The notes below the pieces were generated by a model that saw only the letters and a program-made list of their open reading frames with translations, was not told the DNA's origin and did no database searches. From Bacteroidales bacterium (GTDB taxonomy: Bacteria > Bacteroidota > Bacteroidia > Bacteroidales > VadinHA17): DNA of 64,000 nt. Where the stretch lies: positions 10,340-74,339 of the forward strand of contig DNOQ01000450.1 of NCBI GenBank assembly GCA_003501665.1, in the 5' to 3' direction. The position numbers and the translations under genes were made by a program. Positions 1,398-34,692 of this stretch are shown here, one piece after another (within the stretch, counting starts at the first letter, position 1; each line of letters starts with the position of its first letter).

Positions 1398-2375
1398 ATG
1401 AAGGAGAAAATTGACGGTCAAAAGGTTCTAGGGCTGTATGAGAAGATGTTTCTCATCCGAAAATATGAAGAAAAGATATATTTTCTTTTTCTCGAGGGTA
1501 TAATGCCGGGAACAATTCATCAATCCCAGGGTCAGGAAGCAACAGCGGTGGGTATGTTGTACGATTTAAGAAAAGAAGACTATATGACATCCACACACAG
1601 GCCTGCCGGTCATTGTCTGGCAAAAGGGGTCACAGTTGATTCGATGATGGCTGAAATGTTTGCAAAGAAAACGGGTTGTTGCAAGGGCAAGGGAGGAGCA
1701 ATGCATACCGGAGATATTTCTGTTGGGGCAATCCCGGCAATCGCGATTGTCGGCGGAGGGATTCCTGTTGCTGTAGGAGTCGGCCTCTCATGTAAAATGA
1801 GGAAAACCGATAATGTTGTGGTTTGTTTTTTTGGTGACGGGGCAACCAATGAGGGAGCTTTTCATGAATCATTAAATGCTGCTGCAATCTGGAATCTACC
1901 AGTTATTTTTGCCTGTGAGAATAATCTATATGGAGCATCCACACATATAAGACAGGTAACGAAAATCAAAGACCTTGCAGTCAGAGGTGATGCATATGGA
2001 ATACCATGGGAAATAGTCGATGGTAATGATGTCATTAAAGTAAATGAAGCAGCCATAAGAGCAATTGAAAGGGCAAGAAATGGATCAGGTACTACCTTCC
2101 TGGAACTCAAAACATACAGAAGATCGGGGCATTCAAGGAATGATGCATGCGGGTACAGGGATAAGAAAGAGGAAAAGGAATGGTTTGAAAAAGACCCGTT
2201 GACAATCTGTAAAAATTATATCCTTGAAAAGAAAATAACCACACTCCAAAAGCTTGAGGAATTGGAAAAGAAGGTTCTTGATGAAATCGATAATGCTGTT
2301 GAGTATGCAAAATCAAGCCCGTATCCTGAACCACAGGATGCATTAACTGATGTTTATTTTGAAGGAGGAAAATAA
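1398..2375 (+). CDS. Thiamine-diphosphate-dependent acetoin/2-oxoacid dehydrogenase E1 component, alpha subunit
   Basis: 325 aa. E1-alpha hallmarks are ...IHQSQGQEATAVG..., the TPP-binding motif GDGATNEGAFHESLNAAAIWNLPVIFACENNLYG, and ...YRRSGHSRND.... The stop lies 2 nt before the next ATG. Confidence 0.9.
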   Translation: MKEKIDGQKVLGLYEKMFLIRKYEEKIYFLFLEGIMPGTIHQSQGQEATAVGMLYDLRKEDYMTSTHRPAGHCLAKGVTVDSMMAEMFAKKTGCCKGKGGAMHTGDISVGAIPAIAIVGGGIPVAVGVGLSCKMRKTDNVVVCFFGDGATNEGAFHESLNAAAIWNLPVIFACENNLYGASTHIRQVTKIKDLAVRGDAYGIPWEIVDGNDVIKVNEAAIRAIERARNGSGTTFLELKTYRRSGHSRNDACGYRDKKEEKEWFEKDPLTICKNYILEKKITTLQKLEELEKKVLDEIDNAVEYAKSSPYPEPQDALTDVYFEGGK

Positions 2376-2377
2376 CC

Positions 2378-3397
2378 ATGGCTACGATGTCTATTGCAGA
2401 AGCTTTGAGAGAAGCGATAAAAGAGGAAATGAGACGGGACGAAAGAGTATTCTGTCTTGGAGAAGATATTGATGTTGAAGGAGGATTCGGAGGAGCATTC
2501 ACCGTGACATTGGGCCTTTCTAAGGAATTCGGGCATGAGAGAATCCTTGATACTCCGATTTCTGAGATAATGATTGCCGGTGCCGCTGTGGGAGCCGCCA
2601 TGACAGGTATGATCCCGATTGCTGACGTGCAATATGGTGATTTCCTGTTCTGCATGATGGATCAGATGGCAAATAATGCAGGGAAAATGACATATATGTC
2701 GGGAGGAACTGTCAAGGTACCGATGGTAATGAGAGCGCCTGTTGGTGCAACAACAAGAGGAGCCCAGCATGCACAGAGCCTTGAAGGATTCTTCACACAT
2801 ATACCGGGGCTTAAGGTCATATGCCCTTCTACTGCTTACGATGCCAAAGGGTTGCTGAAGACGGCAATCCGAGATGAGAATCCGGTGGTGGTATTTGAAC
2901 ATAAGCTTCTGTATGGAAGCAAAGGTAACCGTGCAGAAAAATCTGCGCTCAGTCCTGTTGGAGAGGTCCCTGAGGAAGAATATCTTATTCCTTTCGGAGT
3001 CGCAGCTATTAGAAGGGAAGGTACTGATATTACAATTGTTGCAAACCTGTTAATGATTTACAGGGCTATGGAAGCTGCCGCTATCCTTGAGAAAGAGGGA
3101 ATAAGTGTTGAAATAATTGATCCCCGCACATTGGTCCCATTTGATTATGAAACAGTTATAAATTCAATTAAAAAGACCTCCCGGCTCATGATAGTTGAAG
3201 AGGATACAAGACGAAACGGATGGGGAGCAGAAGTCGCGGCACAGATAGCCGAGGATGCTATTTATTATCTTGATGCACCGATAAAGAGGGTTGCAACCTA
3301 TGATGTTCCGATTCCCTTTGCTCCTGTTATGGAAAACTTTGTTGTCCCCTCGGCACAGAGAATAGCTGAAGAAGCAAGAAAATTAATGAACTCCTGA
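2378..3397 (+). CDS. Acetoin/2-oxoacid dehydrogenase E1 component, beta subunit
   Basis: 339 aa. It shows the transketolase-like pyrimidine-binding and C-terminal domain pattern typical of E1-beta (...VFCLGEDI..., ...GAQHAQSLEGFFTHIPGLKVICPSTAYDAKGLLKTAIRDENPVVVFEHK...). It is tightly coupled to the E1-alpha gene. Confidence 0.9.
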   Translation: MATMSIAEALREAIKEEMRRDERVFCLGEDIDVEGGFGGAFTVTLGLSKEFGHERILDTPISEIMIAGAAVGAAMTGMIPIADVQYGDFLFCMMDQMANNAGKMTYMSGGTVKVPMVMRAPVGATTRGAQHAQSLEGFFTHIPGLKVICPSTAYDAKGLLKTAIRDENPVVVFEHKLLYGSKGNRAEKSALSPVGEVPEEEYLIPFGVAAIRREGTDITIVANLLMIYRAMEAAAILEKEGISVEIIDPRTLVPFDYETVINSIKKTSRLMIVEEDTRRNGWGAEVAAQIAEDAIYYLDAPIKRVATYDVPIPFAPVMENFVVPSAQRIAEEARKLMNS

Positions 3398-3416
3398 AAA
3401 TATTAAATAGAAAATC

Positions 3417-4325
3417 ATGGCATTGGTTTCAATGAAAAGGCTTATGAATCATGCCATTGCAAACAAATATGCAGTGGGGTATTTTGAAGCCTGGAATATG
3501 GATTCCATTCTGGCAGTTGTTGATGCTGCTGAAAAAACTGATTCACCGGTTATCATAGGCTTCGGAGGTCAGTTCATAGGAAGTAAAAAGAGAACTGTTA
3601 AAGAGAATATTTATCATTATGGATCTCTTGGAAAATCAATTGCGGAAAACACAAAAGTTCCCGTAGCATTACTTTTAAATGAGGCTCATGAGATCCCAAT
3701 GTTAATCAATGGATTAAAAGCAGGGTTTAATGCGATAATGTATGAGGACCATAGTATCTCTCTCAAAGAATTCATAGAAATTAATAAATACCTTGTAAGA
3801 ACCGCTCACTATTGCGGTGCTGATGTTGAAGCAGAAATCGGAGAACTTCCAAATGCAGATATCTCCACTGATTCTATAAGCCAGGGAAAAATGACAGATC
3901 CGGAAGAAGCAGCATATTTTGTGGAAGAAACAGGCATTGATGCACTAGCTGTTGCAGTAGGCAATGTCCATCTTCTTGAAAATAAAAAGTCTGATCTTGA
4001 TTTTGATCTGATAAAGGCTCTCAGGAAGAAGGTTAAAGTGCCTCTTGTTCTTCATGGAGGAACAGGTATCTCACCTGAAAACCTGAAGGAGGCTATAAAC
4101 CTGGGAATGTGCAAAGTAAATGTTGGCACGGTAATGAAAAGAGCTTTCCTGAAATCAGTCCAGTTGTACCTTAAGGATCATGAAGTTGACAGAATGGATC
4201 CTCATGATATTATCGGGAAAGGTGGCGAACTTGATATGCTTTCCGGAGCAAGAGAGGCTATCGCCGAAGAAGTTGTCAGGTTCATGAAAATATTCGGTTG
4301 TGTTAATAAGGCTCATTTAATCTGA
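3417..4325 (+). CDS. Class II (metal-dependent) ketose-bisphosphate aldolase family protein (fructose/tagatose-bisphosphate aldolase-like)
   Basis: 302 aa. Family motifs are ...NKYAVGYFEAWNMDSILAVVDAAEKTDSPVIIGF..., ...VEAEIGELP..., ...ALAVAVGNVHLL... and ...PLVLHGGTGIS.... The gene sits between the E1-beta and E2 genes with gaps of 19 and 9 nt. Confidence 0.85.
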   Translation: MALVSMKRLMNHAIANKYAVGYFEAWNMDSILAVVDAAEKTDSPVIIGFGGQFIGSKKRTVKENIYHYGSLGKSIAENTKVPVALLLNEAHEIPMLINGLKAGFNAIMYEDHSISLKEFIEINKYLVRTAHYCGADVEAEIGELPNADISTDSISQGKMTDPEEAAYFVEETGIDALAVAVGNVHLLENKKSDLDFDLIKALRKKVKVPLVLHGGTGISPENLKEAINLGMCKVNVGTVMKRAFLKSVQLYLKDHEVDRMDPHDIIGKGGELDMLSGAREAIAEEVVRFMKIFGCVNKAHLI

Positions 4326-4334
4326 GGAAGTGAA

Positions 4335-5567
4335 ATGATAAAGAAAATAATAATGCCTTCAGGCGGGCAGACAACTGATGAGATGCTTATCCAGAAATGG
4401 AATTTCAAGCAGGGAGATCCCGTAAAGAGAGGAGATACTCTTTTTGAGATTGAAACAGATAAAGCATCATTACCAGTTGAAAGTTTCACTGATGGTATCC
4501 TTCTTGCGATTTTATACAATGAAGGCGAAATGGTAAAAACAGGTGAAATAGTGGCATACATCGGTGATCCGGGGGATAAGATACCGGAAGGACCTGAAAA
4601 ACCAATGCTCGGACCTGAAGAAAAGAAAATCGAAACCTCTGTAATACAAGATAAAGAAGTTGTACCTGTGATAATAACAGGGGTAGCACAACAGATCAAA
4701 GATCTGAAAATAACCGCATCCCCTCTTGCGAAAAATATGGCAAGAATTGAAAATGTCAGCCTTGAGGAAATTGCGAATTTCTATTCTAAAAATCTAATCA
4801 AGAAAGCCGATATTGATAACTTCATCAGAGAAAAACAGATTCCGGGCGACGGAGGTTTTTATCTTATCGATACAACTTCTATGAGGCGAACAATTGCCAG
4901 GAGGATGAAGGAAAGTGTTTTAACATCCCCTCATTATATTGTCTCTGTCGATGTCGATATGTATGAAATAATCAGACTGAGAAAAAAGCTCAATGAATAC
5001 CTGAAGGACAGTGAAATTAAAATTACATATAATGATATCCTTATGAAGATTGCAGCAAAGGCAATCGAGGCTTTCCCGATGATCAATTCCTCTTATCAGG
5101 ATGATACGATAAAAGTATACAGGGATATCAATTTTGGTCTTGCCGTAGGCCTGGATAAAGGACTTATAGTACCTGTGGTAAAACAGGTGAATAAAAAGTC
5201 TATCAGGGAAATAGCAGCTGCAAACAACAGGAATATTAACGCTGCAAAAACCGGCAGGCTGCAGGAATCAGACATTACAGGAGGTACAATTACTTTATCA
5301 AATCTCGGCATGTATGGAATCGATAAATTTACTGCTGTAATCAACCAGCCCGAAAGCTGCATACTGGCTGTCGGGGGAATAATTGAGAAACCTGTCGTGA
5401 AAAACCATCAGATAGTTATAAGAGATATGATGAATATAACAGGTTCATTTGATCATAGGATCATAGATGGTACCCTGGGTGCTTCATTTCTTAACGGGGT
5501 AAGGGAATTACTTGAGGATCCTTATCTGTTATTCTTCAATCCCGAAAGGTATCTTTCTGAGAAATAA
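4335..5567 (+). CDS. Dihydrolipoamide acyltransferase (E2 component) of a 2-oxoacid/acetoin dehydrogenase complex
   Basis: 410 aa. It has a single lipoyl domain with the lipoyl-lysine motif EIETDKASLPVES and a peripheral-subunit-binding domain (ITASPLAKNMARIENVSLEEI). The catalytic domain ends ...ITGSFDHRIIDGTLGASFL (DHRxxDG active site). Confidence 0.9.
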   Translation: MIKKIIMPSGGQTTDEMLIQKWNFKQGDPVKRGDTLFEIETDKASLPVESFTDGILLAILYNEGEMVKTGEIVAYIGDPGDKIPEGPEKPMLGPEEKKIETSVIQDKEVVPVIITGVAQQIKDLKITASPLAKNMARIENVSLEEIANFYSKNLIKKADIDNFIREKQIPGDGGFYLIDTTSMRRTIARRMKESVLTSPHYIVSVDVDMYEIIRLRKKLNEYLKDSEIKITYNDILMKIAAKAIEAFPMINSSYQDDTIKVYRDINFGLAVGLDKGLIVPVVKQVNKKSIREIAAANNRNINAAKTGRLQESDITGGTITLSNLGMYGIDKFTAVINQPESCILAVGGIIEKPVVKNHQIVIRDMMNITGSFDHRIIDGTLGASFLNGVRELLEDPYLLFFNPERYLSEK

Positions 5568-5682
5568 ATCCTAAATGGTTTTCATGAGAACAACATGCTG
5601 AACACTTAATTGAGCGAATGTTAATCTGTAAGAAATAATCAAATAATAATGCATTAATAATTATTTAAAGAGGAGGTATATT

Positions 5683-6228
5683 ATGCTTGATAAGAAACAA
5701 TTCGAGAAAGCCCGCACTGAAGCACTTGCATATTTCGATAAGGCCGGTATCGTCCTTACTGAGAAGGAAAAAAATTCTATCGAAATTGCAGATTTCGGAC
5801 TAAGTGACCTCTATAAAATCGGACTCGAGGTGCTTGTTTATGTTAATACAACAAAAGTCTGCGCAAAAGAACTTGTAATGTTCCCGGGACAGACATGTCC
5901 GGAACACAAACATCCGACAAAGAACGGTATTTCAGGAAAAGAGGAGACATTCAGGTGCAGATGGGGTAAAGTATACCTGTATGTTACCGGTGAAAAGAAC
6001 TGTGAACCTAAACTTGACGGTCTGGAAAATCATAAAGAATATCTCAAGGTATCACATGAAATAGTACTTAATTCGGGAGATCAATATACTCTGATGTCTG
6101 ACACTCTGCACTGGTTCAGGGCAGGCGATGAAGGGGCTGTTGTTTCGGAGTTCTCAACTACAAGTACTGATGACCAGGATATCTTTACAGATCCCAGAAT
6201 AAACAGGTTCACCAAAATAAGCGAATAA
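5683..6228 (+). CDS. Cupin-type D-lyxose/D-mannose ketol-isomerase family protein (short form)
   Basis: 181 aa. ...CAKELVMFPGQTCPEHKHPTKNGISGKEETFRCRWGKVYLYV... matches my memory of the short (Bacillus YdaE-type) D-lyxose isomerase cupin metal site. The assignment rests on motif recall only. Confidence 0.7.
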   Translation: MLDKKQFEKARTEALAYFDKAGIVLTEKEKNSIEIADFGLSDLYKIGLEVLVYVNTTKVCAKELVMFPGQTCPEHKHPTKNGISGKEETFRCRWGKVYLYVTGEKNCEPKLDGLENHKEYLKVSHEIVLNSGDQYTLMSDTLHWFRAGDEGAVVSEFSTTSTDDQDIFTDPRINRFTKISE

Positions 6229-6251
6229 TTAACAGATCCACTGAAAATCTT

Positions 6252-7190
6252 ATGTCTGATATCGTTTGTGTCGGAATACTGGTTGCCGATGTCCTCGGAA
6301 AACCGGTTGACCATTTACCAGAGAAAGGTAAATTAGGCCTGGTAGAGAAAATGTCACTTCAGATTGGCGGTTGTGCCGCAAATTTTGCTATTGACCTTGC
6401 CAAACTCGGACTGAAAACCACTATCATTGGAAAGATAGGTGACGATAATTTTGGCAGATTTTTACTCGAAACTCTAAACTCAGAGAAAGTTGATGTAACG
6501 GGGCTGAAACTTGATAAAAATGTTTCTACCTCTGCTTCAATGGTTATGATATCAGGAGACGGCGAAAGATCAATACTTCATTCTTTCGGTGCCAATGCCA
6601 AATTCAGTTTTGATGATGTAAACCTTGATTTAATAAAAGAATCAAAAATCTTACTGATTGCAGGAACATTCCTCATGCCTGATTTTGACGGTGAAGGCAC
6701 AGAGAAACTCCTTAAATATGCAAAAGAGAATGGAGTTATTTGCTGCATGGATACTGCATGGGATTCAAAGGGTCAATGGCTCAGGAAGATTGAATCATCA
6801 TTGCAATATCTCGACTGGTTTATGCCGAGTTATGATGAAGCATGTGAAATGAGTGGCAAAAAGATCCCTGAAGAGATTGCCCTTTTCTTCCGTTCAAAAG
6901 GTGTTAAAAATGTAATTATAAAACTGGGGCATGAGGGTTGTTTCGTTAAGCAAGACGATCAAAAAGAGTACCAGGTCCCTGCTTTTAACAAAGTTAAGAC
7001 AATTGATACTTCAGGTGCCGGTGATTCATTCTGTGCAGGTTTTATTGCCGGACTCTATTTGGGCTGGAATATACCTGAATGTGCCAGGTTTGCAAATGCT
7101 GTTGGTGCTCATTGCATAATGCAGATAGGGACAACCGCAGGCATTAAATCTATCGAAGAGACTCTCAGATTCATTAAAGAATATGAATAA
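6252..7190 (+). CDS. PfkB/ribokinase-family carbohydrate kinase, substrate unknown
   Basis: 312 aa. Motifs are ...IVCVGILVADVLGKPV..., ...GGCAANFAIDLAKLG... and the C-terminal PfkB signature ...DTSGAGDSFCAGFIAGL.... Confidence 0.85.
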   Translation: MSDIVCVGILVADVLGKPVDHLPEKGKLGLVEKMSLQIGGCAANFAIDLAKLGLKTTIIGKIGDDNFGRFLLETLNSEKVDVTGLKLDKNVSTSASMVMISGDGERSILHSFGANAKFSFDDVNLDLIKESKILLIAGTFLMPDFDGEGTEKLLKYAKENGVICCMDTAWDSKGQWLRKIESSLQYLDWFMPSYDEACEMSGKKIPEEIALFFRSKGVKNVIIKLGHEGCFVKQDDQKEYQVPAFNKVKTIDTSGAGDSFCAGFIAGLYLGWNIPECARFANAVGAHCIMQIGTTAGIKSIEETLRFIKEYE

Positions 7191-12505: not shown

Positions 12506-15184
12506 TTATGCCTTAAAACGTAACTTGAATGTTTTTATCTCAAATGGTTTAAGATCAAACTGAATGGTATCCCCCGTAACTTTCATCTTTATACCGGTGT
12601 CCTCTACCAGGTTGGCTTCATTGGCAGATACAATCTTTGCCATGCTCTTTAACGTTACTCCCGGTGTGGCCTCTCCTGATGCCTCGTACAACCTCACTAT
12701 GGTCGTACCTTCTTTCCCCGGTTTCATTGCCGTTATTACTACATTCGGTTTCGAAACCTCAAGCATGCCCCACACCTTCGGCAGCTTTCCTTCATGAATG
12801 CCTGACTTGCGGCAAAGCAAAGGATTGTTATACTCCAGCCCGTGACGATAAACCTCTGCCTTGCGCCAGTCACCTTCGTGCGGAACCAGCGCGTAATCAA
12901 ACTCAAGGTCCGCTCCCATCATGAGTCCCGTGTCTGATGACATACCCCTCTCATATCCCCCTCCGTAACCATACGATGCAATCCTTGCCGAGCGCATAAG
13001 TGATACCATCATCGTCGAATCACTCGTCAGGTTGCCAGGTAGGCCACGGTTAAGAACTGCCAGCCCTCTTGATCCGTCACTGTAATCAGCCCAGTTCTGG
13101 GCAGGAAATTCTATCCCGTTAGGCCGCTCTATCGACCCGAAGGGTATCTCATGTACTATCTTCCCTTCCTTTATTGTGGTCGGGAACATTACCTGGTATC
13201 TTACAAATTTCTCATTGTTCTCTATCCGTGTCTTAATGTCTATCCTCCTTAATCCCTTATATATCCTGATTGTCGTGGATAATGCCCCGTCGGCACAGAA
13301 CCTGTGCGGCGCCAGTTTGTATTCCGAATAAACCGGGCCCTGGTGTACCTTGCCCCTCTCTCCCCGGTACTCCGTGCTGAACTGATCCACATTCTCCTGC
13401 GGTACAGGCTGCTTGCGGTCATTTACAACCTGACCTGCCCTTAAATTACCGTAAAGTTCCCAGAGGTCTCCCCCGTCATACTGATGAACAACCACGTTCC
13501 CGGCCTTATAAAGTACTTCCCATTTATTCGATTTCAATCCGATACTTGTTATTGCTCCTGTTGACAGTTCAAGCTTTATCCTGTAATATTCGTTCTCCAT
13601 AACACCTTCACTGATCTCCTGGCTTGCGTTCATCTGTGATGCCGATGTCAACGGGATGACCCTGTAAACAGCCTCTCCCATTGCAGGTACTCCCCTGGCT
13701 ATGAACACGATCTTCGCATTCTTTATCCCTCCGTCACGGAAACGCTCTGCCTCAACTATCTCCACGGGAATTATCTTATTTGCCTGGTCAGCCACCTGGA
13801 TATCAACAATACCCCCTTTCTTAAAACCAACCATAGTCTCAACAACATCGTCGCGCTTCCATCCCAGAGGATTGAACACTACAACAGGTATTCCTTCACC
13901 GCTTGTATCTACCTGTGATGCCAGGTAATCAAGCCTGTCATCTACCAGCTCCTTTCCCGTGCGTGCCGAAAAATCGTACGTAAGTATGGTGTCTTCATAT
14001 ACTTGGTCTGTCATGACACCAGCCATAAGATCATGAGCCTGGTTGAATAGTGATGGCTCCCAGGCATCCCATACCTTTTCCTCAGCAGTCGGCCGCCCGA
14101 GCCAGTTGCCTATAGCACCCAGCTTCTCCGCTGTGGTGAGTAGCCTCTCAACGTTTCTCAGCTTCTGCTTCAGCTCAATACGGCTGCTGTAAGCTCCCTG
14201 GAAAATAGGATTAAGATCTCCGCTGATGACAGGCCTGTCTGTTCTTTTCTCCATAGTAGCCTCAAAATCTGTTGGCACAGCAAGTCTCAGGTTGAAAGGT
14301 TTGTCACTCAGTTTTTCAAATTTCCCGACCATAACAGGCAGGCTTTCCAGAGGCTCAGAAACGTCACATTCTGCCATACCTATGCGGTCATTTCCTTTAT
14401 ATAAATGGGACAGTGATTCAAATCTCTTTTTACAAAAGGTAATAAACTCGTCAATTTTATCAGGAGATCCCGCAAAATTGCAATACGATTGTGCAAGATA
14501 AATGGCTGATATACGGGTTCCGTCAATTCCCTCCCATAACCATTCAGAGGGTACCTTCGAGTCGGGAGCGCCACGCTGGAACCAGTATGAATTAAAACCT
14601 GCCTTTTTAAGGATCTGCGGCATCTGGGCATTGTGTCCGAATGTGTCAAGGGCCCAGCCGATGGTCACATCAACTCCCAGCTTATCCCTGAAATAACTTT
14701 TGCCATAGAGGAACTGGCGTACCATTGATTCGCCCGAAGGTATATTAGCATCAAACATAGAGTCTATCCCTCCAACTATCTGTAGCCTGCCTTCATTAAC
14801 AAATTGATAAAAAGCAGCTGCCTCTTCAGGATATCTCTCAAGAAACGGTTTTACATAACAGACCTGATCGAGTGTGAATCGATAATCCGGATAGTCATTT
14901 AATAATTTAAGTGCTGTCAGGATATTTGGCAGACCCATATCAAGATATTGCTCCCTTGTCTTGAATACCGCTCCTTCCCAGTGGGTATGAGGTATGATCC
15001 AGAATGTATCTTTTGGAGCAAGCGTTGATAACATGGATGATTCGGGATCTGTACTGCGGCCGCGTGTATAACTGCCAGATGCAAACAATTCTGTAATATT
15101 ACCCACACCTAATGTTCCCGCAGCGCCTAGAAATGCTGCATGTGATACAAACTTTCTTCTGGTAAGAAAACTTTTCTTTGTCAT
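12506..15184 (-). CDS. GH38 alpha-mannosidase with twin-arginine (Tat) signal (copy 1)
   Basis: 892 aa. It carries the Tat leader MTKKSFLTRRKFVSHAAFLGAAG. The GH38 N-terminal metal site is ...IIPHTHWEGAVF... and the nucleophile region is ...GWALDTFGHNAQMPQIL.... The long C-terminal beta-rich domains are typical of GH38. Confidence 0.9.
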   Translation of the reverse strand: MTKKSFLTRRKFVSHAAFLGAAGTLGVGNITELFASGSYTRGRSTDPESSMLSTLAPKDTFWIIPHTHWEGAVFKTREQYLDMGLPNILTALKLLNDYPDYRFTLDQVCYVKPFLERYPEEAAAFYQFVNEGRLQIVGGIDSMFDANIPSGESMVRQFLYGKSYFRDKLGVDVTIGWALDTFGHNAQMPQILKKAGFNSYWFQRGAPDSKVPSEWLWEGIDGTRISAIYLAQSYCNFAGSPDKIDEFITFCKKRFESLSHLYKGNDRIGMAECDVSEPLESLPVMVGKFEKLSDKPFNLRLAVPTDFEATMEKRTDRPVISGDLNPIFQGAYSSRIELKQKLRNVERLLTTAEKLGAIGNWLGRPTAEEKVWDAWEPSLFNQAHDLMAGVMTDQVYEDTILTYDFSARTGKELVDDRLDYLASQVDTSGEGIPVVVFNPLGWKRDDVVETMVGFKKGGIVDIQVADQANKIIPVEIVEAERFRDGGIKNAKIVFIARGVPAMGEAVYRVIPLTSASQMNASQEISEGVMENEYYRIKLELSTGAITSIGLKSNKWEVLYKAGNVVVHQYDGGDLWELYGNLRAGQVVNDRKQPVPQENVDQFSTEYRGERGKVHQGPVYSEYKLAPHRFCADGALSTTIRIYKGLRRIDIKTRIENNEKFVRYQVMFPTTIKEGKIVHEIPFGSIERPNGIEFPAQNWADYSDGSRGLAVLNRGLPGNLTSDSTMMVSLMRSARIASYGYGGGYERGMSSDTGLMMGADLEFDYALVPHEGDWRKAEVYRHGLEYNNPLLCRKSGIHEGKLPKVWGMLEVSKPNVVITAMKPGKEGTTIVRLYEASGEATPGVTLKSMAKIVSANEANLVEDTGIKMKVTGDTIQFDLKPFEIKTFKLRFKA

Positions 15185-19694: not shown

Positions 19695-20440
19695 TCAGTT
19701 TGCAGCAACATCGTTCAGCGAATGGTAATTAGGATCCAAAGCATAAGAAATGAAAAAAATGGCACAAGAGTCATTTGAAAAGTAAAGATATCTGTCACTT
19801 TGCTTGTCATAAATATTGACATTAACATATTTAGGCACAGAATAATAATCTGCAAGGGCCTCTGCCCTGTACCTGAGTTCATATGAATTATAATTATCCA
19901 TGATATTTACAAACCAGGCATGGATTTTCAACAGTAGAGATAAATTTTCATAATGAGTAAGATTCTTAACCGTGGATTTTATTCATTTTTCCCCTTTTGC
20001 CTGGGAAGTTGGTTGTTTGGTCGGGTTTACATGAAGATAGTGATTATAACAAGATCAACCGTATAGACTATGCAAACCGGGTACTTAAAGTTATGACACC
20101 AATCCAGGTCGTTTTCCCAGCTGATCCATAACCGGTCAGATTTATCACAAGCTAGAGATGGTTTGGTATTCAGGTTTACTCTGTTCTTCCAGCTCCCTCC
20201 GGTAAATACAGGGACTCTCTTTTTAACTTCCAATGTATTTGGGTCAATAATGTTCATACTAATGTTCAGATGAACACCATCCGTAATAACGTGTGCCATG
20301 TATACGAAACCATCTTTCCCCCAAGCTATCGCAGGATCAAGACAGCATTCATCGTAATGAGTGACCTGTACCGGGACTTAGGGCAATTAAAGTCGATGCT
20401 GCACCCAGGTCCCTTATAAATACCCTCCTCTTCATTGGTT
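19695..20440 (-). pseudogene. Probable decayed gene remnant (fragmented beta-propeller-like ORFs)
   Basis: Two short minus-strand ORFs (20027-20299 and 19695-19931) sit in different frames. An open upstream extension reads ...DPAIAWGKDGFVYMAHVITDG... and is closed by an in-frame stop. There is no credible start or signal peptide. The segment ...KPSLACDKSDRLWISWEND... looks like a propeller blade. It lies between intact GH92 and GH38 genes. Confidence 0.3.
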
Positions 20441-20479: not shown

Positions 20480-23041
20480 TTACTTCTCAAGTTGTAATTT
20501 GATAGTTTTAATCTCAAAGGGGCCGATGTCAAATTGGACAGTATCCATTGCAACTTTCAACTTACTCCCGGTGTCCTCAATAAGATTGGCTTCCCAGGCA
20601 GAGTTTATTTTCGCCCTGCTCCTGATTGCAACTTCCTTTGTTGCCCTGCCTGATGCTTCGTAAAGTCTGAGTATCGTCGAACCATCTGGTCCCGGTTTCA
20701 AAGCTGATAAAACTACATTCGGCTTCGACACTTCCAGCAATCCCCACACCTTCGGCAGCTTTCCTTCATGAATGCCTGACTTGCGGCAAAGCAACGGATT
20801 GTTATACTCAAGCCCATGCCTGTAAATCTCAGCCTGTTGCCAGGTTTCCTCATGGGGAACAAGTGAATAATCAAATTCCAATTCCTTACCTACCATAAAA
20901 CCGGCGACTGAACTCATCCATTGTTCAATATCTTTATCGAACCGGTGTGATCCATACGACATAAGGGATGCTGAACGCATCAGGGAAAGGATCATCGTTG
21001 AATCGCTTGTGAGATTGCCAGGCAGCCCCCTGTTTAATACTGAAAGACCTTTATTCCCATCACTGTAATCTGCCCAGTTCTGGGCCGGCAATTCAATACC
21101 GTTCGGCCGTTCAAGCGATCCGAAAGGTATCTCATGCACAGTCTGACCATTCCTGATCGTCGTCGGAAATAATACCTGGTAACGAACGTATTTCTCGTTA
21201 TTCATAATTTCAGTCCGAATATCAATACGTCTCAATCCCGGGTATAGCCTTACCCTGGTGGCAAAAGTACCCTGAAGGGTGTCTGCAAACGTGTTATACA
21301 GGCCGAAATGGTGCGCAACTTTAAATTCAGAATAGACCGGCCCTTTATGTATTACACCTTTCTCCCCGCGATACTCTGAGCTGAACTGATCCCGACTGGC
21401 TTCCGGAACCGGCTGCTTGCGATTCATGGCTATATTACTTCCTCCTTTCAGGTTTTCATAAAGCTCCCATAAGTCACCACCATCAAACTGGCGCACAACC
21501 ACATTCCCTTCTCTTTCCAGTACTTCCCACTGATTTGATCTGAGCACCAGGCTGGTCATTGCCCCTGTCAGAAAATCAAATTTTATTCTATAGTACTCAT
21601 TCTCCAGCTGCCCCTCACTGTTTTCCTGACTTGCATTGAGCGGAGATGCTTTTGTCAGCGGGATAACTCTGTAAACGGCTTCCCCCATCGCGGGTATTTC
21701 CCTGGCAATGAAGATTATCTTCGCATTCTTAATACCTCCGTCACGGAAACGCTCTGCTTCAAGTATTTCAACAGGAATTACCCTATTCGACGTATCAACT
21801 ACCTGGATATCAACAATCCCTCCTTTTTTAAAGCCTACTGTTGTCTCAACAACATCGTCACGCTTCCAGCCAAGTGAATTGAATATCACAAGGGGTATCC
21901 CTTCACCAGTGGTATCAATCTGCGAGGACAAGTAACCAAGACGGTCATCGACTAATTCATTACCCAGATGTGTCGAGAATTTGTAACCCAGCATCGTGTC
22001 ATCATTGACATGATCCATCATGACCCCCGCCATAAGATCGTGGGCCTGGTTGAACAACGAAGGTTCCCATGCGCTCCATACCTTTTCTTCAGTTGTTGGT
22101 CTCCCAAGCCAGTTGCCAATTGCACCCAGCTTTTCCGCTGTCGTGAGCAATCTCTCAACATTTCTAAGTTTCTGCTTCAGTTCAATCCTGCTGCTGTAGG
22201 CTCCCTGGAAAATGGGATTAAGCTCACATTTTATTACCGGGCGGTCAGTCCTCTTGTTTATCACCTCCTCATATTCTGTCGGAACGGCAAGCCTGAGATT
22301 AAATGATCTGCCGTCCTGCAGGTTAAATTCTTTGACCCTGTCAGGGACACTCTCCACCGGATTGACCACATCAGGGCTGCCAACCCCAACCCTTTCTGTG
22401 CCATAAGCCCAGGGAGTAAGTGAATCGAACTTCTGTTTCATGAAGTTTGTAAATTCATCAATCTTATCGGGGGAATGACCAAGGAGTCCATAACCCTTTG
22501 GAAGGTAAAAAGCAGGGATCCGTGTGCCGTCAATACCTTCCCATAACCATTCTGACGGTACTTCAGTATCTGGCACACCCCGCATAAACCAGTAAGATTT
22601 AAACCCTCCCTGTTTGAGGATCTGTGGCATCTGGGCGTTGTGACCAAAAGTATCAAGTGCCCACCCGACAGTCACATCTACTCCCAGCTTCTCCCTGAAA
22701 TAATTTTTACCATATATCATATGACGTACCATTGATTCCCCTCCCGGGATATTGGCATCGAACATGGAGATATTACCTCCGACAACCTGAAGCCGTCCTT
22801 CCCTTATAAATTGCTTAAATGCAGCTGCCTCTTCAGGAAATCTCTCCAGAAAAGGCTTAACATAGCAAACCTGGTCAAGAGTAAAACGATAATCCGGGTA
22901 CTCATTCAACAGATTTAAAGCTGTCAGTATATGTGGTAATCCTATTTCGAGGTATTCCTCCCGGGTTTTAAATACCGCTCCCTCCCAGTGTGTAGAGGGA
23001 ATAAACCAGAAAGTATCTTTTGGAATTGATTTAGAAAACAT
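20480..23041 (-). CDS. GH38 alpha-mannosidase lacking any signal peptide (copy 2)
   Basis: 853 aa. It starts MFSKSIPKDTFWFIPSTHWEGAVF..., which is exactly where the mature domain of the neighbouring copies begins. An in-frame TAA lies immediately upstream (23042-23044). The nucleophile region is ...GWALDTFGHNAQMPQIL.... It is 18 nt downstream of copy 3. Confidence 0.9.
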   Translation of the reverse strand: MFSKSIPKDTFWFIPSTHWEGAVFKTREEYLEIGLPHILTALNLLNEYPDYRFTLDQVCYVKPFLERFPEEAAAFKQFIREGRLQVVGGNISMFDANIPGGESMVRHMIYGKNYFREKLGVDVTVGWALDTFGHNAQMPQILKQGGFKSYWFMRGVPDTEVPSEWLWEGIDGTRIPAFYLPKGYGLLGHSPDKIDEFTNFMKQKFDSLTPWAYGTERVGVGSPDVVNPVESVPDRVKEFNLQDGRSFNLRLAVPTEYEEVINKRTDRPVIKCELNPIFQGAYSSRIELKQKLRNVERLLTTAEKLGAIGNWLGRPTTEEKVWSAWEPSLFNQAHDLMAGVMMDHVNDDTMLGYKFSTHLGNELVDDRLGYLSSQIDTTGEGIPLVIFNSLGWKRDDVVETTVGFKKGGIVDIQVVDTSNRVIPVEILEAERFRDGGIKNAKIIFIAREIPAMGEAVYRVIPLTKASPLNASQENSEGQLENEYYRIKFDFLTGAMTSLVLRSNQWEVLEREGNVVVRQFDGGDLWELYENLKGGSNIAMNRKQPVPEASRDQFSSEYRGEKGVIHKGPVYSEFKVAHHFGLYNTFADTLQGTFATRVRLYPGLRRIDIRTEIMNNEKYVRYQVLFPTTIRNGQTVHEIPFGSLERPNGIELPAQNWADYSDGNKGLSVLNRGLPGNLTSDSTMILSLMRSASLMSYGSHRFDKDIEQWMSSVAGFMVGKELEFDYSLVPHEETWQQAEIYRHGLEYNNPLLCRKSGIHEGKLPKVWGLLEVSKPNVVLSALKPGPDGSTILRLYEASGRATKEVAIRSRAKINSAWEANLIEDTGSKLKVAMDTVQFDIGPFEIKTIKLQLEK

Positions 23042-23059
23042 TTATGTGCGTTTTTATAA

Positions 23060-25744
23060 TTATAATTTCTGAAGTTTCAACTTAAATGTCTTTATTTCAA
23101 ATGGTTTCAGATCAAACTGTAACGTGTCCATTGCTACTTTCATTTTTGCCCCTGGGTCCTCTATCAGATTCGCTTCATTAGCTGTTAAAATTCTGGCCTT
23201 ACTTTTTATTTTAACACCTTGTGTCGCCCTGCCGGATGCCTCATAAACCCTGAATATTGTGGTTTCGTCTTTACCCGGTTTCAATGATGATATAACTACA
23301 TTTGGATTGGAAACTTCCAGCAGTCCCCATGTTTTCGGTAACTTACCTGAATGAATACCTGCCTTGCGACATAGAAGTGGATTATTAAATTCCAATCCAT
23401 GCTTATATATTTCAGCTTTGCGCCAGTCTCCTTCATGAGGAACCAGAGCATAGTCAAACTCCAGGTTAGCACCCAGCATCAATCCCGTATCGGATGACAT
23501 ACCCCGTTCATATCCTCCACCATAGCCATATGAAGCAATGCGGGCCGATCGCATCAACGAAACCATCATTGTGGAATCGCTTGTGAGATTCCCCGGCAGC
23601 CCTATATTGAGTATTGCAAGTCCTTTTGATCCATCACCGTAGTCTGCCCAGTTCTGTGCCGGAAATTCAATACCGTTAGGTCTTTCTATAGATCCAAATG
23701 GAATTTCATGGACTATCTGTCCATTCTTTATTGTTGTCGGGAACATCACCTGGTATCGAACAAACTTCTCATTGTTCTCAATCCGCGTCTTTATATCGAT
23801 CCGATTCAAACCTGCATATGTTCTTACTACAAAGGAAATAGCTCCATCTGCACAGTACCTGTGTGGCCCGAGTTTATATTCTGAGTAAACCGGGCCCCGG
23901 TGAACAGTACCACGTTCCCCTCGATACTCGGTGCTGAACTGGTCAACATTTATTACCGGAACCGGTTGCTTCCTTGTCATGTTTATATTACTGCCACCTT
24001 TCAGGTTTTCATAGAGTTCCCACAGGTCCCCTCCGTCATATTGATGAACCACTACATTCCCGGCATTATCCAGAACCTCCCAGTTGTTCGATTTTAAAGC
24101 AAGGCTGGTAATAGCTCCGGTTGACAGGTCTAATGATATTTTAAAGTGTTCATTTTCCATTATACCATCGCTGCTCTCGCTGCCTGCATTGAGCACTGAT
24201 GCTGATGTTAGTGATATAACCCGGTAAACAGCCAGTCCCATCGCAGGAATTTCCTTAGCAATGAAAATGATCTTTGCACTCTTTATCCCTCCCCCGCGGA
24301 ACCGTGTTGCTTCTAGTATCTCAACAGGAATTATCTTATTCGATTGATCGACTACCTGTATATCTACAATGCCTCCCTTCTTAAATCCAACTATTGTTTC
24401 AACTACATCATCCCTCTTCCATCCAAGTGAATTGAATACTACAAGTGGTATTCCTTCACCAGTTGTGTCGACCTGTGTTGAAAGGTAGTCAAGCCTGTCC
24501 TCGACCAATTCAATACCTGTACGTGTTGAAAAGTCATAAGTAAGGATTGTATCTTCATAAACATGATCTGTCATGACACCTGCCATAAGGTCGTGGGCCT
24601 GATTGAACAGGGATGGTTCCCATGCGCTCCATACCTTTTCTTCAGTGGTAGTCCTTCCAAGAAGGTTCCCGAGAGCTCCGAGCTTTTCCGCTGTTGTAAG
24701 CAACCTCTCAACCTTCCTCAGTTTCTGCTTAAGCTCGATACGGCTGCTGTAAGAACCCTGGAAAATGGGATTTAACTCACCTTTAAGTACTATCCGATCG
24801 GTCCTTTTATTTACAACATTCACAAAATCTGAGGGTCCGGCAAGACGCAGATTAAATGGCTTATTACTTAACTTCTCAAATTCGGCTACCATTACCGGTA
24901 CACTCTCGTTAGCATCTTCAACATCAAGACTGTCTATTCCAACCCTGTCATTACCATAAGACCATGGATTTAGTGAATCAAACCTTTTCTTCACACTGGC
25001 AACAAATTCATCAATTTTATCAGGAGTACGACCAAGAAGTCCATATCCTCTCGGCAGGTAAAATGCAGCAATCTGAGTTCCATCAATACCTTCCCATAAC
25101 CATTCGGAAGGTATTTCGTTGTTTGGTACGCCGCGCTGGAACCAGTATGAATCATATCCTGCCAGTTTCAGCAGCTGTGGCATCTGGGCACAGTGTCCGA
25201 AAGTATCAAGCGCCCAGCCAACATTCACATCCACTCCCAGGTTTTCCCTGTAATAGGTCTTTCCATAGAGCATATGCCTCACCATTGACTCGCCACAGGG
25301 AATATTTGCATCAAACATAGAAATTATTGCACCTACAATGTGCAGCCTTCCCTCCTTTACAAACTGGCGAAAAGCCACTGCTTCTTCCGGATATCTCTCC
25401 AGAAAAGGCTTAACATAACATACCTGGTCGAGAGTAAACCGATAATTCGGATAGTCATTTAAAAGCCTGAGCGCTGTAAGTATATGTGGTAAACCCATCT
25501 CAAGATATTGTTCCCTCGTCTTGAAGACAGCGCCCTCCCAATGTGTGGCGGGAATAAACCAGAAAGTATCCGCAGGAGCCAGTACCGGATCCGGATTTGA
25601 ATCAAAATCTGATTTTGCCCCAGCATTATTCGCTTCTGATGAAAATAATACTGCAAAATTACCTACGCTGAATGTACCTGCCGCACCAATAACGGCTGCA
25701 TTTGATATAAACTTTCTTCTGCTTAAGGAATTTTTCTTAGTCAT
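23060..25744 (-). CDS. GH38 alpha-mannosidase with twin-arginine (Tat) signal (copy 3)
   Basis: 894 aa with the Tat leader MTKKNSLSRRKFISNAAVIGAAG. GH38 motifs are ...FIPATHWEGAVF... and ...GWALDTFGHCAQMPQLL.... It is collinear with copies 1 and 2 throughout. Confidence 0.9.
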   Translation of the reverse strand: MTKKNSLSRRKFISNAAVIGAAGTFSVGNFAVLFSSEANNAGAKSDFDSNPDPVLAPADTFWFIPATHWEGAVFKTREQYLEMGLPHILTALRLLNDYPNYRFTLDQVCYVKPFLERYPEEAVAFRQFVKEGRLHIVGAIISMFDANIPCGESMVRHMLYGKTYYRENLGVDVNVGWALDTFGHCAQMPQLLKLAGYDSYWFQRGVPNNEIPSEWLWEGIDGTQIAAFYLPRGYGLLGRTPDKIDEFVASVKKRFDSLNPWSYGNDRVGIDSLDVEDANESVPVMVAEFEKLSNKPFNLRLAGPSDFVNVVNKRTDRIVLKGELNPIFQGSYSSRIELKQKLRKVERLLTTAEKLGALGNLLGRTTTEEKVWSAWEPSLFNQAHDLMAGVMTDHVYEDTILTYDFSTRTGIELVEDRLDYLSTQVDTTGEGIPLVVFNSLGWKRDDVVETIVGFKKGGIVDIQVVDQSNKIIPVEILEATRFRGGGIKSAKIIFIAKEIPAMGLAVYRVISLTSASVLNAGSESSDGIMENEHFKISLDLSTGAITSLALKSNNWEVLDNAGNVVVHQYDGGDLWELYENLKGGSNINMTRKQPVPVINVDQFSTEYRGERGTVHRGPVYSEYKLGPHRYCADGAISFVVRTYAGLNRIDIKTRIENNEKFVRYQVMFPTTIKNGQIVHEIPFGSIERPNGIEFPAQNWADYGDGSKGLAILNIGLPGNLTSDSTMMVSLMRSARIASYGYGGGYERGMSSDTGLMLGANLEFDYALVPHEGDWRKAEIYKHGLEFNNPLLCRKAGIHSGKLPKTWGLLEVSNPNVVISSLKPGKDETTIFRVYEASGRATQGVKIKSKARILTANEANLIEDPGAKMKVAMDTLQFDLKPFEIKTFKLKLQKL

Positions 25745-34611: not shown

Positions 34612-34692
34612 ATATATACCCTTCCCAATGTCAGCAATTAAGATTTTTTGAACCATAAGAATACAAAATCTATCAGGAAATTATCGGAAATC

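What the first reader, a model, noticed from the sequence alone, without database searches (positions are those of the whole stretch)
20480..25744. Signal-less GH38 encoded 18 nt downstream of a Tat-signal GH38: cytoplasmic enzyme or Tat hitchhiker?
Copy 2 begins MFSKSIPKDTFWFIPSTHWEG, aligned to residue ~52 of its neighbours. It precisely lacks the ~50-aa Tat leader and linker, and a TAA lies directly upstream of its ATG, so no longer N-terminus is possible. It is otherwise intact and sits immediately after the Tat-bearing copy 3 on the same strand. Two readings are possible. The first is a cytoplasmic alpha-mannosidase for imported oligosaccharides, yet no importer is nearby. The second, more speculatively, is co-export as a hetero-oligomer with the Tat-signal paralogue. 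Tat hitchhiking is established for hydrogenase and DMSO-reductase subunits, and GH38 enzymes are commonly oligomeric metalloenzymes.
Basis: partly seen in the sequence, partly recalled or inferred. Interest (0 to 1): 0.55.

Follow-up and report, generated by a model that had tools for sequence, protein, structure and literature searches.

The report
Signal-less GH38 mannosidase behind Tat-exported paralogue
An intact alpha-mannosidase gene that has lost its export signal sits 18 bases after an export-tagged sister gene; it belongs to a small, old, conserved signal-less lineage with a remodelled substrate loop. It most likely works inside the cell, although piggy-back export with its neighbour cannot be excluded.

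Summary
Copy 3 (23060-25744, minus strand, 894 aa) carries a twin-arginine leader. After its stop come 18 nt holding two more in-frame TAA codons. Then copy 2 (20480-23041, 853 aa) starts 8 residues before the first core beta-strand. Copy 2 lacks exactly the 50-55 unstructured residues (signal plus linker) of copies 1 and 3.

It is not a sporadic recent truncation. Copy 2 groups with two other truly signal-less proteins from independent metagenomes (bootstrap 100%). This clade shares two insertions and a rewritten, otherwise near-universal loop. Its dN/dS is 0.087, the same as Tat-bearing relatives. Its outgroups carry Tat signals, so the loss is derived. The rewritten loop aligns to the SpGH38 loop (D763/W764/Y766/F767) that sets +1-subsite specificity and contacts the dimer mate.

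Best reading (about 0.6): a functional cytoplasmic alpha-mannosidase with a changed leaving-group subsite, expressed from the upstream gene's operon. Stand-alone signal-less members exist elsewhere in the family, one inside an operon of cytoplasmic enzymes.

Hitchhiking (about 0.15) keeps some circumstantial support: all four signal-less copies in the Tat-using clade directly follow another GH38. It has no positive evidence. The closest copy 3 orthologue (92% identity) has no such follower.

The parts
23060..25744 (-). Copy 3: GH38 alpha-mannosidase precursor with Tat leader (894 aa)
   Evidence: ORF. Four GH38 Pfam domains. AF2 pLDDT 87 with an ordered core from residue 60. 92% identical to P0018.
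25631..25744 (-). Tat signal peptide of copy 3 (residues 1-38; SRRKFIS motif plus h-region)
   Evidence: TIGR01409 scores 18.0 bits against a cut-off of 16.7, matching residues 7-36. Sequence read. pLDDT about 30.
25571..25630 (-). Unstructured linker of copy 3 (residues 39-58), absent from copy 2
   Evidence: Alignment. pLDDT below 50 up to residue 55.
23042..23059 (-). 18-nt intergenic spacer TTATAAAAACGCACATAA. It is in frame and holds two further TAA codons. No terminator-like hairpin.
   Evidence: Sequence. Terminator scan at chance level, with no site here.
20480..23041 (-). Copy 2: signal-less GH38 alpha-mannosidase (853 aa), member of the signal-less clade with P0002 and P0003
   Evidence: ORF. 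Pfam. No TIGR01409 hit. AF2 pLDDT 90.2. Foldseek TM 0.84 to 5KBP. Clade bootstrap 100%. dN/dS 0.04-0.09.
21272..21295 (-). Clade-specific 8-residue insertion NTFADTLQ (residues 583-590) that lengthens a beta-hairpin in the C-terminal beta-domain
   Evidence: Alignments. It is absent from all 58 other family members aligned. Translation. Strands 571-583 and 588-599 in the model.
20900..20956 (-). Remodelled loop YGSHRFDKDIEQWMSSVAG (residues 696-714), replacing the near-universal YG-[YF]GGGYE.GMSSD[ST]G. It aligns to the SpGH38 loop 757-773 (+1 subsite and dimer contact).
   Evidence: HMM alignments to 3LVT and 2WYH. SpGH38 residue roles from PMC2815779. pLDDT below 50 for residues 698-705.
12506..15184 (-). 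Copy 1: third paralogue, with Tat-type leader TRRKFV (892 aa)
   Evidence: TIGR01409 is sub-threshold at 13.1 bits.
20027..20435 (-). Pseudogene remnant directly downstream of copy 2. It keeps the Tat leader MKRRVFIRDLGAAS... plus about 90 codons of an 829-aa protein that is intact downstream of a GH38 in L010 and L017.
   Evidence: ORF list. tblastx to L010 and L017. Translations.
1398..7190 (+). Cytoplasmic module E1alpha-E1beta-class II aldolase-E2-lyxose-isomerase-like-PfkB kinase. It travels with this GH38 family in other genomes.
   Evidence: Pfam. The same module is next to the GH38 in L002, L098 and L084.

Best explanation
Copy 2 is a functional GH38 alpha-mannosidase that stays in the cytoplasm. 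It descends from Tat-exported ancestors. Its lineage lost the twin-arginine leader. In P0002 and P0003 the loss looks like an in-frame deletion of the RR motif and h-region that left the linker; in copy 2 the whole leader and linker are gone.

The lineage then rebuilt the loop that, in the homologous SpGH38 structure, forms the +1 (leaving-group) subsite and touches the dimer mate.

Copy 2 is probably transcribed together with the upstream Tat-bearing copy 3. The inferred division of labour is by compartment. The Tat-bearing copies trim manno-oligosaccharides in the periplasm. Copy 2 hydrolyses a small imported mannoside, and the mannose goes to the mannose isomerase and kinase enzymes encoded in the same locus.

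Shown: absence of a signal, intact fold and catalytic motifs, age, purifying selection, the clade-specific loop change, and the existence of stand-alone signal-less relatives.

Inferred: cytoplasmic location, co-transcription, changed specificity and the identity of the substrate.
For: No signal:
- No signal and no possible longer start.
- Copy 2 lacks only the disordered residues 1-55 of its paralogues.

Intact enzyme:
- Family-invariant residues are retained, including H18, E20, D130 (DTFGH) and H334-D335.
- The fold matches GH38 at TM 0.84.

Old, selected lineage:
- copy2+P0002+P0003 has bootstrap 100%. The Tat clade is monophyletic without them at 93%.
- Tat signals are present in the outgroups P0039-41 and P0050, so the loss is derived.
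- Synonymous sites against copy 3 are saturated (pS 0.70).
- dN/dS for P0002-P0003 is 0.087, against 0.076-0.118 for Tat-bearing pairs.
- There is no rate acceleration.

Neo-functionalisation:
- An 8-aa insertion, a 3-aa insertion and GGGY->D[KR]DI lie in a loop conserved in 58 of 58 other members aligned.
- This loop aligns to SpGH38 D763-W764-G-Y766-F767, the linkage-specificity loop (PMC2815779).

Precedent for a cytoplasmic role in this family:
- P0109, P0058 and L084 are truly signal-less and have no GH38 neighbour.
- The L084 gene starts 2 nt after the E2 gene of a PfkB-E1-aldolase-E2 operon.
- The structural nearest neighbours lack signals (PMC2815779).

Context:
- Cytoplasmic mannose isomerase and kinases are in the locus.
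- An MFS importer sits in the related locus L098.
Against: - No importer lies anywhere on the 84.6-kb contig.
- Location was not measured, and no SignalP or TatP run was possible.
- All three clade members, plus the independently signal-less P0035, sit directly after another GH38 on the same strand. A purely cytoplasmic enzyme would not need this. Origin by partial tandem duplication and dependence on the upstream promoter would explain it.
- The remodelled loop is also a dimer-contact loop in SpGH38, so the change could concern partner choice rather than substrate.
- The clade is rare: 3 proteins among 5.8 billion clusters.
Confidence: 0.6

Rival explanations
1. Tat hitchhiking. Copy 2 folds in the cytoplasm, forms a GH38 heterodimer with the still-unexported copy 3 (or copy 1) precursor, and is carried into the periplasm on the partner's single twin-arginine signal. 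The remodelled dimer-contact and +1-subsite loop would then give the heterodimer a composite active site.
For: - A signal-plus gene is followed 18 nt later by a signal-minus gene on one strand, with no terminator-like site between them.
- 4 of 4 truly signal-less members of the Tat-using clade directly follow another GH38 (window; L003 and L011 with gaps of about 147 nt; L010). This compares with 0 of about 8 close Tat-bearing members.
- The loop rewritten in the copy 2 clade aligns to a dimer-contact loop.
- Tat substrates fold before export, so a paralogue that keeps the interface could be co-exported by default.
Against: - There is no direct evidence of interaction or of periplasmic location.
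- The adjacency reflects at most two independent events. Partial tandem duplication plus loss of an own promoter explains it equally well.
- The upstream partner differs between genomes. L003's upstream gene groups with P0035 (100%) and not with the copy 3 subclade, and its N-terminus is unknown.
- The copy 3 orthologue P0018 (92% identity) is followed by other genes, not by a signal-less GH38.
- Most Tat-bearing relatives stand alone.
- The spacing is not conserved (18 nt here, about 147 nt in relatives).
- Distant homologues use Sec-type signals, so the fold does not need cytoplasmic assembly.
- No TorD/DmsD/HybE-like chaperone was found among the ORFs scanned.
- A heterodimer of about 190 kDa would exceed the largest Tat cargoes I know of (own knowledge).
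Confidence: 0.15
2. Evolutionary relic. Copy 2 is a by-product of a partial tandem duplication. It lost its signal, is mislocalised in the cytoplasm, and has no useful function there. It is on its way to becoming a pseudogene, like the neighbouring remnant at 20027-20435.
For: - The region is in flux. There is a pseudogene directly downstream and a transposase-like ORF at 15428-16348.
- Copy 2 itself has 20 deviations at columns that are at least 90% conserved, against 1-8 for Tat-bearing copies.
- The clade is very rare.
- P0035, the other signal-less tandem copy, shows odd changes near the metal-binding motif.
Against: - The ORF is intact over 853 codons despite saturated synonymous divergence from every paralogue.
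- dN/dS is 0.04-0.09.
- Three members from three independent samples share the same derived loop.
- There is no rate acceleration relative to Tat-bearing relatives.
- All family-invariant residues are kept.
- The AF2 model is confident.
Confidence: 0.07
3. Copy 2 is exported by another route. Examples are a cryptic Sec-type N-terminus or a non-classical route such as vesicles.
For: P0002 and P0003 keep a vestigial N-terminus, MIKKKLISVFAG. It has three lysines and a 7-residue hydrophobic stretch, which might act as a weak Sec signal.
Against: - Copy 2 has no such stretch. MFSKSIPKD leads straight into the first core strand.
- There is no lipobox cysteine.
- No type IX secretion C-terminal domain was detected by Pfam.
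Confidence: 0.04

Closest known systems
Streptococcus pyogenes SpGH38 (PDB 2WYH/2WYI) and Enterococcus faecalis GH38 (3LVT/5KBP): signal-less bacterial GH38 alpha-mannosidases
   Same: - Same overall fold (Foldseek TM 0.83-0.84 over the full length) and similar length.
- No signal peptide.
- The catalytic DxFGH nucleophile motif and HD motif are conserved.
- The specificity and dimer loop D763-W764-G-Y766-F767 is alignable to the family's S-Y-G-[YF] loop.
   Different: - Only about 19% sequence identity.
- Copy 2 descends from exported (Tat) ancestors rather than from an ancestrally cytoplasmic line.
- The first metal-binding motif is H-W-E, not H-x-D.
- The loop is 3 residues longer and rewritten in copy 2's clade.
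Tat 'hitchhiker' pairs: E. coli hydrogenase-2 HybO/HybC (Rodrigue et al. 1999, cited in PMC13323110) and DmsA/DmsB
   Same: One gene product has a twin-arginine leader. The adjacent, co-oriented gene product has none. Both would fold in the cytoplasm.
   Different: - Known pairs are non-homologous subunits of cofactor-containing redox enzymes, with obligate assembly and dedicated chaperones.
- Here the two are 73%-identical paralogues of a hydrolase.
- The Tat-bearing type usually occurs alone.
- No chaperone gene is seen.
- No interaction is shown.
Bacteroides thetaiotaomicron periplasmic GH38 BT3774 of the yeast-mannan loci (PMC4978465; review PMC10154615)
   Same: A Bacteroidota GH38 embedded among GH92 and other mannan-degrading enzymes. 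It corresponds to the exported copies 1 and 3.
   Different: I did not compare sequences with BT3774. A Tat-type leader on GH38 was not found described in the literature searched.
Bifidobacterium longum Bl_Man38A/B/C (PDB 7UFR-7UFU): three GH38 paralogues in one operon (review PMC10154615)
   Same: Several GH38 paralogues are encoded side by side with overlapping or complementary linkage specificities. They are structural neighbours.
   Different: By my own knowledge of Gram-positive import systems, all three act in one compartment after import. Here the paralogues differ in targeting.

Membership tests
Glycoside hydrolase family 38 (copy 2) | GH38 domain architecture: N-terminal catalytic domain, middle three-helix domain and C-terminal beta-domains | tested here: met
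   PF01074 (2.5e-40), PF09261, PF07748 and PF17677 all score above their gathering cut-offs.
Glycoside hydrolase family 38 (copy 2) | GH38 three-dimensional fold | tested here: met
   AF2 model with pLDDT 90.2 and pTM 0.91. Foldseek gives TM 0.84 to 5KBP, 0.83 to 2WYH and 0.75 to dGMII.
Glycoside hydrolase family 38 (copy 2) | Catalytic and metal-binding motifs: His-x-Asp, the nucleophile Asp in DxFGH, and His-Asp in the helical domain | tested here: met
   H18, E20, D130-T-F-G-H134 and H334-D335 are invariant across 61 family members, copy 2 included. The whole family has Glu where classical GH38 has Asp (THWE). Assignment of roles rests on alignment to known motifs and on my own knowledge, not on structure.
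Glycoside hydrolase family 38 (copy 2) | Alpha-mannosidase activity | not testable with these tools
   Needs an enzyme assay.
Tat (twin-arginine) substrate: copy 3 | N-terminal S/T-R-R-x-F-L-K-like motif followed by a moderately hydrophobic h-region | tested here: met
   SRRKFISNAAVIGAAGTF. TIGR01409 scores 18.0 bits against a cut-off of 16.7. The region is disordered in AF2. The motif is conserved in about 30 close homologues.
Tat (twin-arginine) substrate: copy 3 | Tat machinery present in the genome and actual Tat-dependent export | not testable with these tools
   Only one contig of the metagenome-assembled genome is available. Other RR-leader proteins in the window (copy 1, the esterase at 34648-35781 and the pseudogene at 20349-20435) suggest the organism uses Tat.
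Tat (twin-arginine) substrate: copy 2 | Own twin-arginine signal | tested here: not met
   No RR motif, no h-region and no TIGR01409 hit. A TAA lies directly upstream of the ATG.
Tat hitchhiker pair (copy 3 + copy 2) | One signal-bearing and one signal-less partner encoded together | tested here: met
   The two genes are 18 nt apart on the same strand.
Tat hitchhiker pair (copy 3 + copy 2) | Stable hetero-complex formed in the cytoplasm before export, with partner-dependent periplasmic location of the signal-less subunit | not testable with these tools
   No multimer prediction is possible, because the two chains exceed the 1200-aa limit. No experiments were possible.
Tat hitchhiker pair (copy 3 + copy 2) | Conserved co-occurrence of the two partners across relatives | tested here: inconclusive
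   3 of 3 clade members follow a GH38. In L003 and L011 the partner's N-terminus is off the contig, and the partner belongs to another subclade. The copy 3 orthologue P0018 (92% identity) has no signal-less follower.
Tat hitchhiker pair (copy 3 + copy 2) | Dedicated Tat proofreading chaperone (TorD/DmsD/HybE type), common in known systems | tested here: inconclusive
   None was found among the ORFs of at least 150 aa scanned with Pfam. It could be encoded elsewhere, and it is not obligatory.
Cytoplasmic bacterial GH38 (SpGH38/MngB type, by function) | No targeting signal, with an intact catalytic core | tested here: met
Cytoplasmic bacterial GH38 (SpGH38/MngB type, by function) | Genomic link to an importer and to cytoplasmic catabolism of the product | tested here: inconclusive
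   Catabolic genes are present: a lyxose/mannose isomerase at 41033-41707, PfkB kinases, and the module at 1398-7190. No transporter lies on the contig. An MFS gene is in the related locus L098. The L084 homologue sits inside an operon of cytoplasmic enzymes.

The most novel reading that the evidence does not exclude
A signal-less glycoside hydrolase paralogue is co-exported through the Tat pathway as a heterodimer with its Tat-bearing sister. The rewritten dimer-contact and +1-subsite loop would create a hybrid active site that exists only in the heterodimer. This would be the first hitchhiker pair made of paralogous hydrolases, in Bacteroidota, and among the largest Tat cargoes (about 190 kDa).
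Probability: 0.12. Interest if true: 0.75.

Novelty: new member of a known kind. Interest (0 to 1): 0.38.

Why it matters
This is a clean natural example of paralogues splitting by compartment. An exported enzyme family spawned a lineage that lost its Tat leader, rewrote its leaving-group and dimer-contact loop, and was kept under selection.

For people annotating polysaccharide-utilisation loci, it shows three things:
- GH38 copies in one locus need not share a location or a specificity.
- Tat leaders are the rule in one Bacteroidales GH38 clade.
- Public gene calls truncate some of these leaders.

If the minority hitchhiker reading were right, it would widen the known range of Tat cargo, both in size and in kind. 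The gene pair is small enough to test by fractionation with and without the partner.

Tried and rejected
- Read-through or fusion of copies 3 and 2: rejected. The genes are in frame, but three TAA codons lie between them.
- Recent truncation or assembly artefact: rejected. There are two independent signal-less relatives, and synonymous sites are saturated.
- Other apparently signal-less close homologues: P0006 and P0021 are gene-caller start errors with a full Tat leader in frame upstream. P0037 had no DNA available.
- Recent gene conversion among copies 1, 2 and 3: none seen. The maximum DNA identity in 150-nt windows is 83%.
- Long-branch artefact for the basal position of the copy 2 clade: unlikely, since rates are equal. 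The N-terminal third alone does not resolve the position.
- Metagenome scan: added no new clade member beyond L003, which reappeared as L012.
- Sigma-70 promoter and terminator scans: at chance level and not informative for Bacteroidota.
- Literature search for Tat-GH38 or for hydrolase hitchhikers: found nothing relevant.
- Homology across the copy 3 / P0018 3' junction: none after the stop codon.
- Heterodimer modelling: impossible with the 1200-aa limit.
Full report
**What is there**

The window has about 42% G+C. It matches an 84.6-kb metagenome contig, ENA ERZ27315072 k141_397164. NCBI annotates the contig as a Bacteroidales bacterium genome assembled from a metagenome, with copy 2 as locus tag DDW27_16185.

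The window is packed with alpha-mannan and N-glycan degrading genes:
- seven GH92 genes;
- three GH38 genes of one family, called copies 1-3 here;
- two DUF5054-type GH38-like genes;
- a GH2 beta-mannosidase and a second GH2-family gene;
- a D-lyxose/mannose isomerase;
- PfkB kinases.

Copy 3 (23060-25744, minus strand, 894 aa) begins MTKKNSLSRRKFISNAAVIGAAGTF. Its TAA stop is followed by 18 nt, TTATAAAAACGCACATAA. Then comes the ATG of copy 2 (20480-23041, 853 aa; MFSKSIPKDTFWFIPSTHWEG). The two genes share a reading frame, but three TAA codons separate them. Neither a longer N-terminus nor read-through is possible.

Copy 2 aligns from residue 52 of copy 1. The curated Tat-signal model TIGR01409 hits copy 3 above its cut-off and copy 1 just below. 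It does not hit copy 2.

AlphaFold2 models show that residues 1-55 of copy 3 are unstructured and that its first core strand is 60-68. The confident copy 2 model (pLDDT 90.2) starts its first strand at residue 9. Copy 2 lacks exactly the leader and linker, and nothing of the fold.

**Is it a sporadic truncation?**

No. A search of 5.8 billion protein clusters returned about 35 close relatives at 65% identity or more. Nearly all are about 893 aa long with the leader SRRKFISNAAVIGAAGTFGAK.

I checked the apparent exceptions on their DNA:
- P0006 and P0021 are start-codon miscalls. A complete Tat leader lies in frame upstream.
- P0002 and P0003 (879 aa, 76-77% identical to copy 2, from two other samples) are truly signal-less, with in-frame stops upstream. 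Their N-terminus MIKKKLISVFAG..NKSVDRN...LAPKDTFW keeps the linker but lacks the RR motif and h-region. This looks like an in-frame deletion of about 23 codons.

Copy 2, P0002 and P0003 form a clade with 100% bootstrap support. The 34 Tat-bearing close relatives, including copies 1 and 3, are monophyletic to its exclusion at 93%. The next outgroups (P0039-41, P0050) carry RRKF leaders, so the loss is derived.

Further points:
- Synonymous sites between copy 2 and copies 1 and 3 are saturated (pS 0.70-0.73).
- Within the signal-less clade, dN/dS is 0.087 at dS 0.80. Tat-bearing pairs give 0.076-0.118.
- Rates are not accelerated.
- No recent gene-conversion tract exists among the three copies.

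**What else changed**

The clade shares an 8-residue insertion, NTFA[DN]TLQ at residues 583-590, which lengthens a beta-hairpin.

It also shares a rewritten loop. The motif YG-[YF]GGGYE.GMSSD[ST]G is present in all 58 other aligned family members, whatever their signal status and phylum. In the clade it reads YGSHR[FY]D[KR]DIE.WMSS[VL]AG at residues 696-714. Seven of the nine shared deviations at columns that are at least 90% conserved lie in residues 684-712. All family-invariant residues are kept, including the metal and nucleophile motifs.

The nearest solved structures are the E. faecalis GH38 (5KBP, TM 0.84) and S. pyogenes SpGH38 (2WYH, TM 0.83). HMM alignments place the family's S-Y-G-[YF] on E. 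faecalis D759-W760-G-Y-F and on SpGH38 D763-W764-G765-Y766. Alignment confidence there is moderate.

According to the SpGH38 paper (PMC2815779):
- the loop 757-773 shapes the +1 subsite and the 1,3 versus 1,6 linkage preference;
- W764, Y766 and F767 are also contacts in an interdigitated dimer;
- the enzyme has no signal peptide and was proposed to be intracellular.

So the signal-less clade has changed precisely the loop expected to set leaving-group specificity, partner contact, or both.

**Context in relatives**

All three clade members lie directly after another GH38 on the same strand. The gap is 18 nt here and about 147 nt in L003 and L011, where only the C-terminus of the upstream gene is on the contig.

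A fourth truly signal-less protein, P0035, belongs to the Tat-type body plan and is therefore an independent loss. It also follows a GH38 directly.

By contrast, none of about eight close Tat-bearing genes with enough upstream sequence follows a GH38. This association is real, but it reflects at most two events. It is also the expected footprint of a partial tandem duplication whose 5' breakpoint lies after the leader. Such a copy has no promoter of its own.

The upstream partner is not a fixed lineage. L003's upstream gene groups with P0035 (100%) and lies outside the copy 3 subclade. The closest orthologue of copy 3 is P0018, at 92% identity. It is followed by the convergent PfkB...E1 module, a 739-aa gene and an MFS transporter, not by a signal-less GH38.

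More distant relatives (46-58% identity, from other phyla) mostly carry Sec-type signals. So the fold does not need cytoplasmic assembly.

Several distant members are truly signal-less and stand alone: P0109 (19 contigs), P0058 and L084. In L084 the GH38 starts 2 nt after the last gene of an operon that reads DUF2961-PfkB-E1alpha-E1beta-class II aldolase-E2. The same cytoplasmic module lies at 1398-7190 in the window and next to the Tat-bearing GH38 in L002 and L098.

**Interpretation**

The default location of a protein without a signal is the cytoplasm. Several findings fit that default:
- the family has repeated stand-alone signal-less members;
- one of them sits inside a cytoplasmic operon;
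- the nearest characterised structures are signal-less enzymes;
- the clade has a rewritten +1-subsite loop, consistent with a new, smaller substrate.

It applies equally to the obviously cytoplasmic isomerase and kinases of the locus, so it carries little weight.

I therefore favour a functional cytoplasmic, neo-functionalised alpha-mannosidase that is co-transcribed with copy 3 (about 0.6).

Hitchhiking stays possible (about 0.15). Tat substrates fold before export, SpGH38-type enzymes dimerise intimately, and the rewritten loop is a dimer contact. But nothing positive supports it:
- the partner is not conserved;
- most Tat-bearing genes work alone;
- no Tat chaperone is seen;
- the cargo would be about 190 kDa.

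A decaying relic is unlikely given the selection data (about 0.07). A cryptic alternative export route is unlikely for copy 2, which has no hydrophobic N-terminus (about 0.04).

**Novelty and scores**

GH38 enzymes, cytoplasmic GH38s, Tat leaders and paralogue subfunctionalisation are all known. What is new is a small, previously undescribed signal-less sub-lineage within a Tat-exported Bacteroidales GH38 clade, with a diagnostic loop change.

I rate it a new member of a known kind, with interest 0.38. The hitchhiker reading, if shown, would deserve about 0.75.

Noticed in passing
window 20027-20435 (-): Pseudogene directly downstream of copy 2. It keeps an orphan Tat leader (MKRRVFIRDLGAASTLIALSPG, 20349-20435) and about 90 codons in another frame. 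Both match an 829-aa Tat-leader protein that is intact downstream of a GH38 in L010 (2847-5336) and L017. About 190 codons are deleted internally and the rest is lost.
   Followed up: yes
window 1398-7190 (+); L002 12740-18525; L098 2942-8740; L084 964-5981: The module E1alpha-E1beta (TPP-dependent)-class II aldolase-lipoyl E2-(lyxose-isomerase-like cupin)-PfkB kinase travels with this GH38 family. It does so in Bacteroidales and in a distant high-GC lineage, where the GH38 is part of the operon. I did not identify the pathway.
   Followed up: partly
window 12506-15184 (-), copy 1: Mosaic phylogeny. The N-terminal third of copy 1 groups with P0032 (98%), but the C-terminal third groups with the copy 3 subclade (70-84%). 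This suggests an old gene conversion between copies 1 and 3. No recent tract is visible at the DNA level.
   Followed up: partly
L010 189-2789 (P0035) and L003 1-804: P0035 is a second, independent signal-less GH38 directly behind another GH38. Its 5' region still reads like a GH38 C-terminus (EFDLKPY), and its N-domain has unusual changes (IPxTHWE -> ILQSHWE). Its C-terminal half is nearly identical to the gene upstream of P0003 in L003.
   Followed up: partly
L002 9925-12607 (P0006); L004 111-2793 (P0021): The public protein records for these Tat-bearing GH38s start at an internal GTG or ATG inside the leader. They wrongly look signal-less. The full RRKF leader is in frame upstream.
   Followed up: yes
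window 15428-16348 (+): A 306-aa ORF with a sub-threshold DDE transposase match (22 bits against a cut-off of 23). It lies between copy 1 and a GH92 gene on the opposite strand. The region between copy 2 and copy 1 looks rearranged relative to L003 and L011, where the signal-less GH38 is followed by the amidohydrolase that follows copy 1 here.
   Followed up: partly
window 34648-35781 (+): The esterase (Abhydrolase_7/AXE1-like) also has a twin-arginine-type leader, NRRSFLKSQVILGLGAF. The listed TTG start is probably too far upstream, and MENKTF... looks like the real start.
   Followed up: no
whole contig (L096, L097 and the window): The 84.6-kb contig holds at least eight GH38-like genes and at least seven GH92 genes. 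It has no SusC/SusD pair, MFS or ABC transporter, which is unusual for a Bacteroidota glycan locus.
   Followed up: partly
window 38626-39951 (-) and 39809-40996 (-): The mannitol-dehydrogenase-family ORF, as listed from its GTG start, overlaps the upstream PfkB gene by 143 nt. The orthologue in L002 is 419 aa, so the true start is probably further downstream.
   Followed up: no
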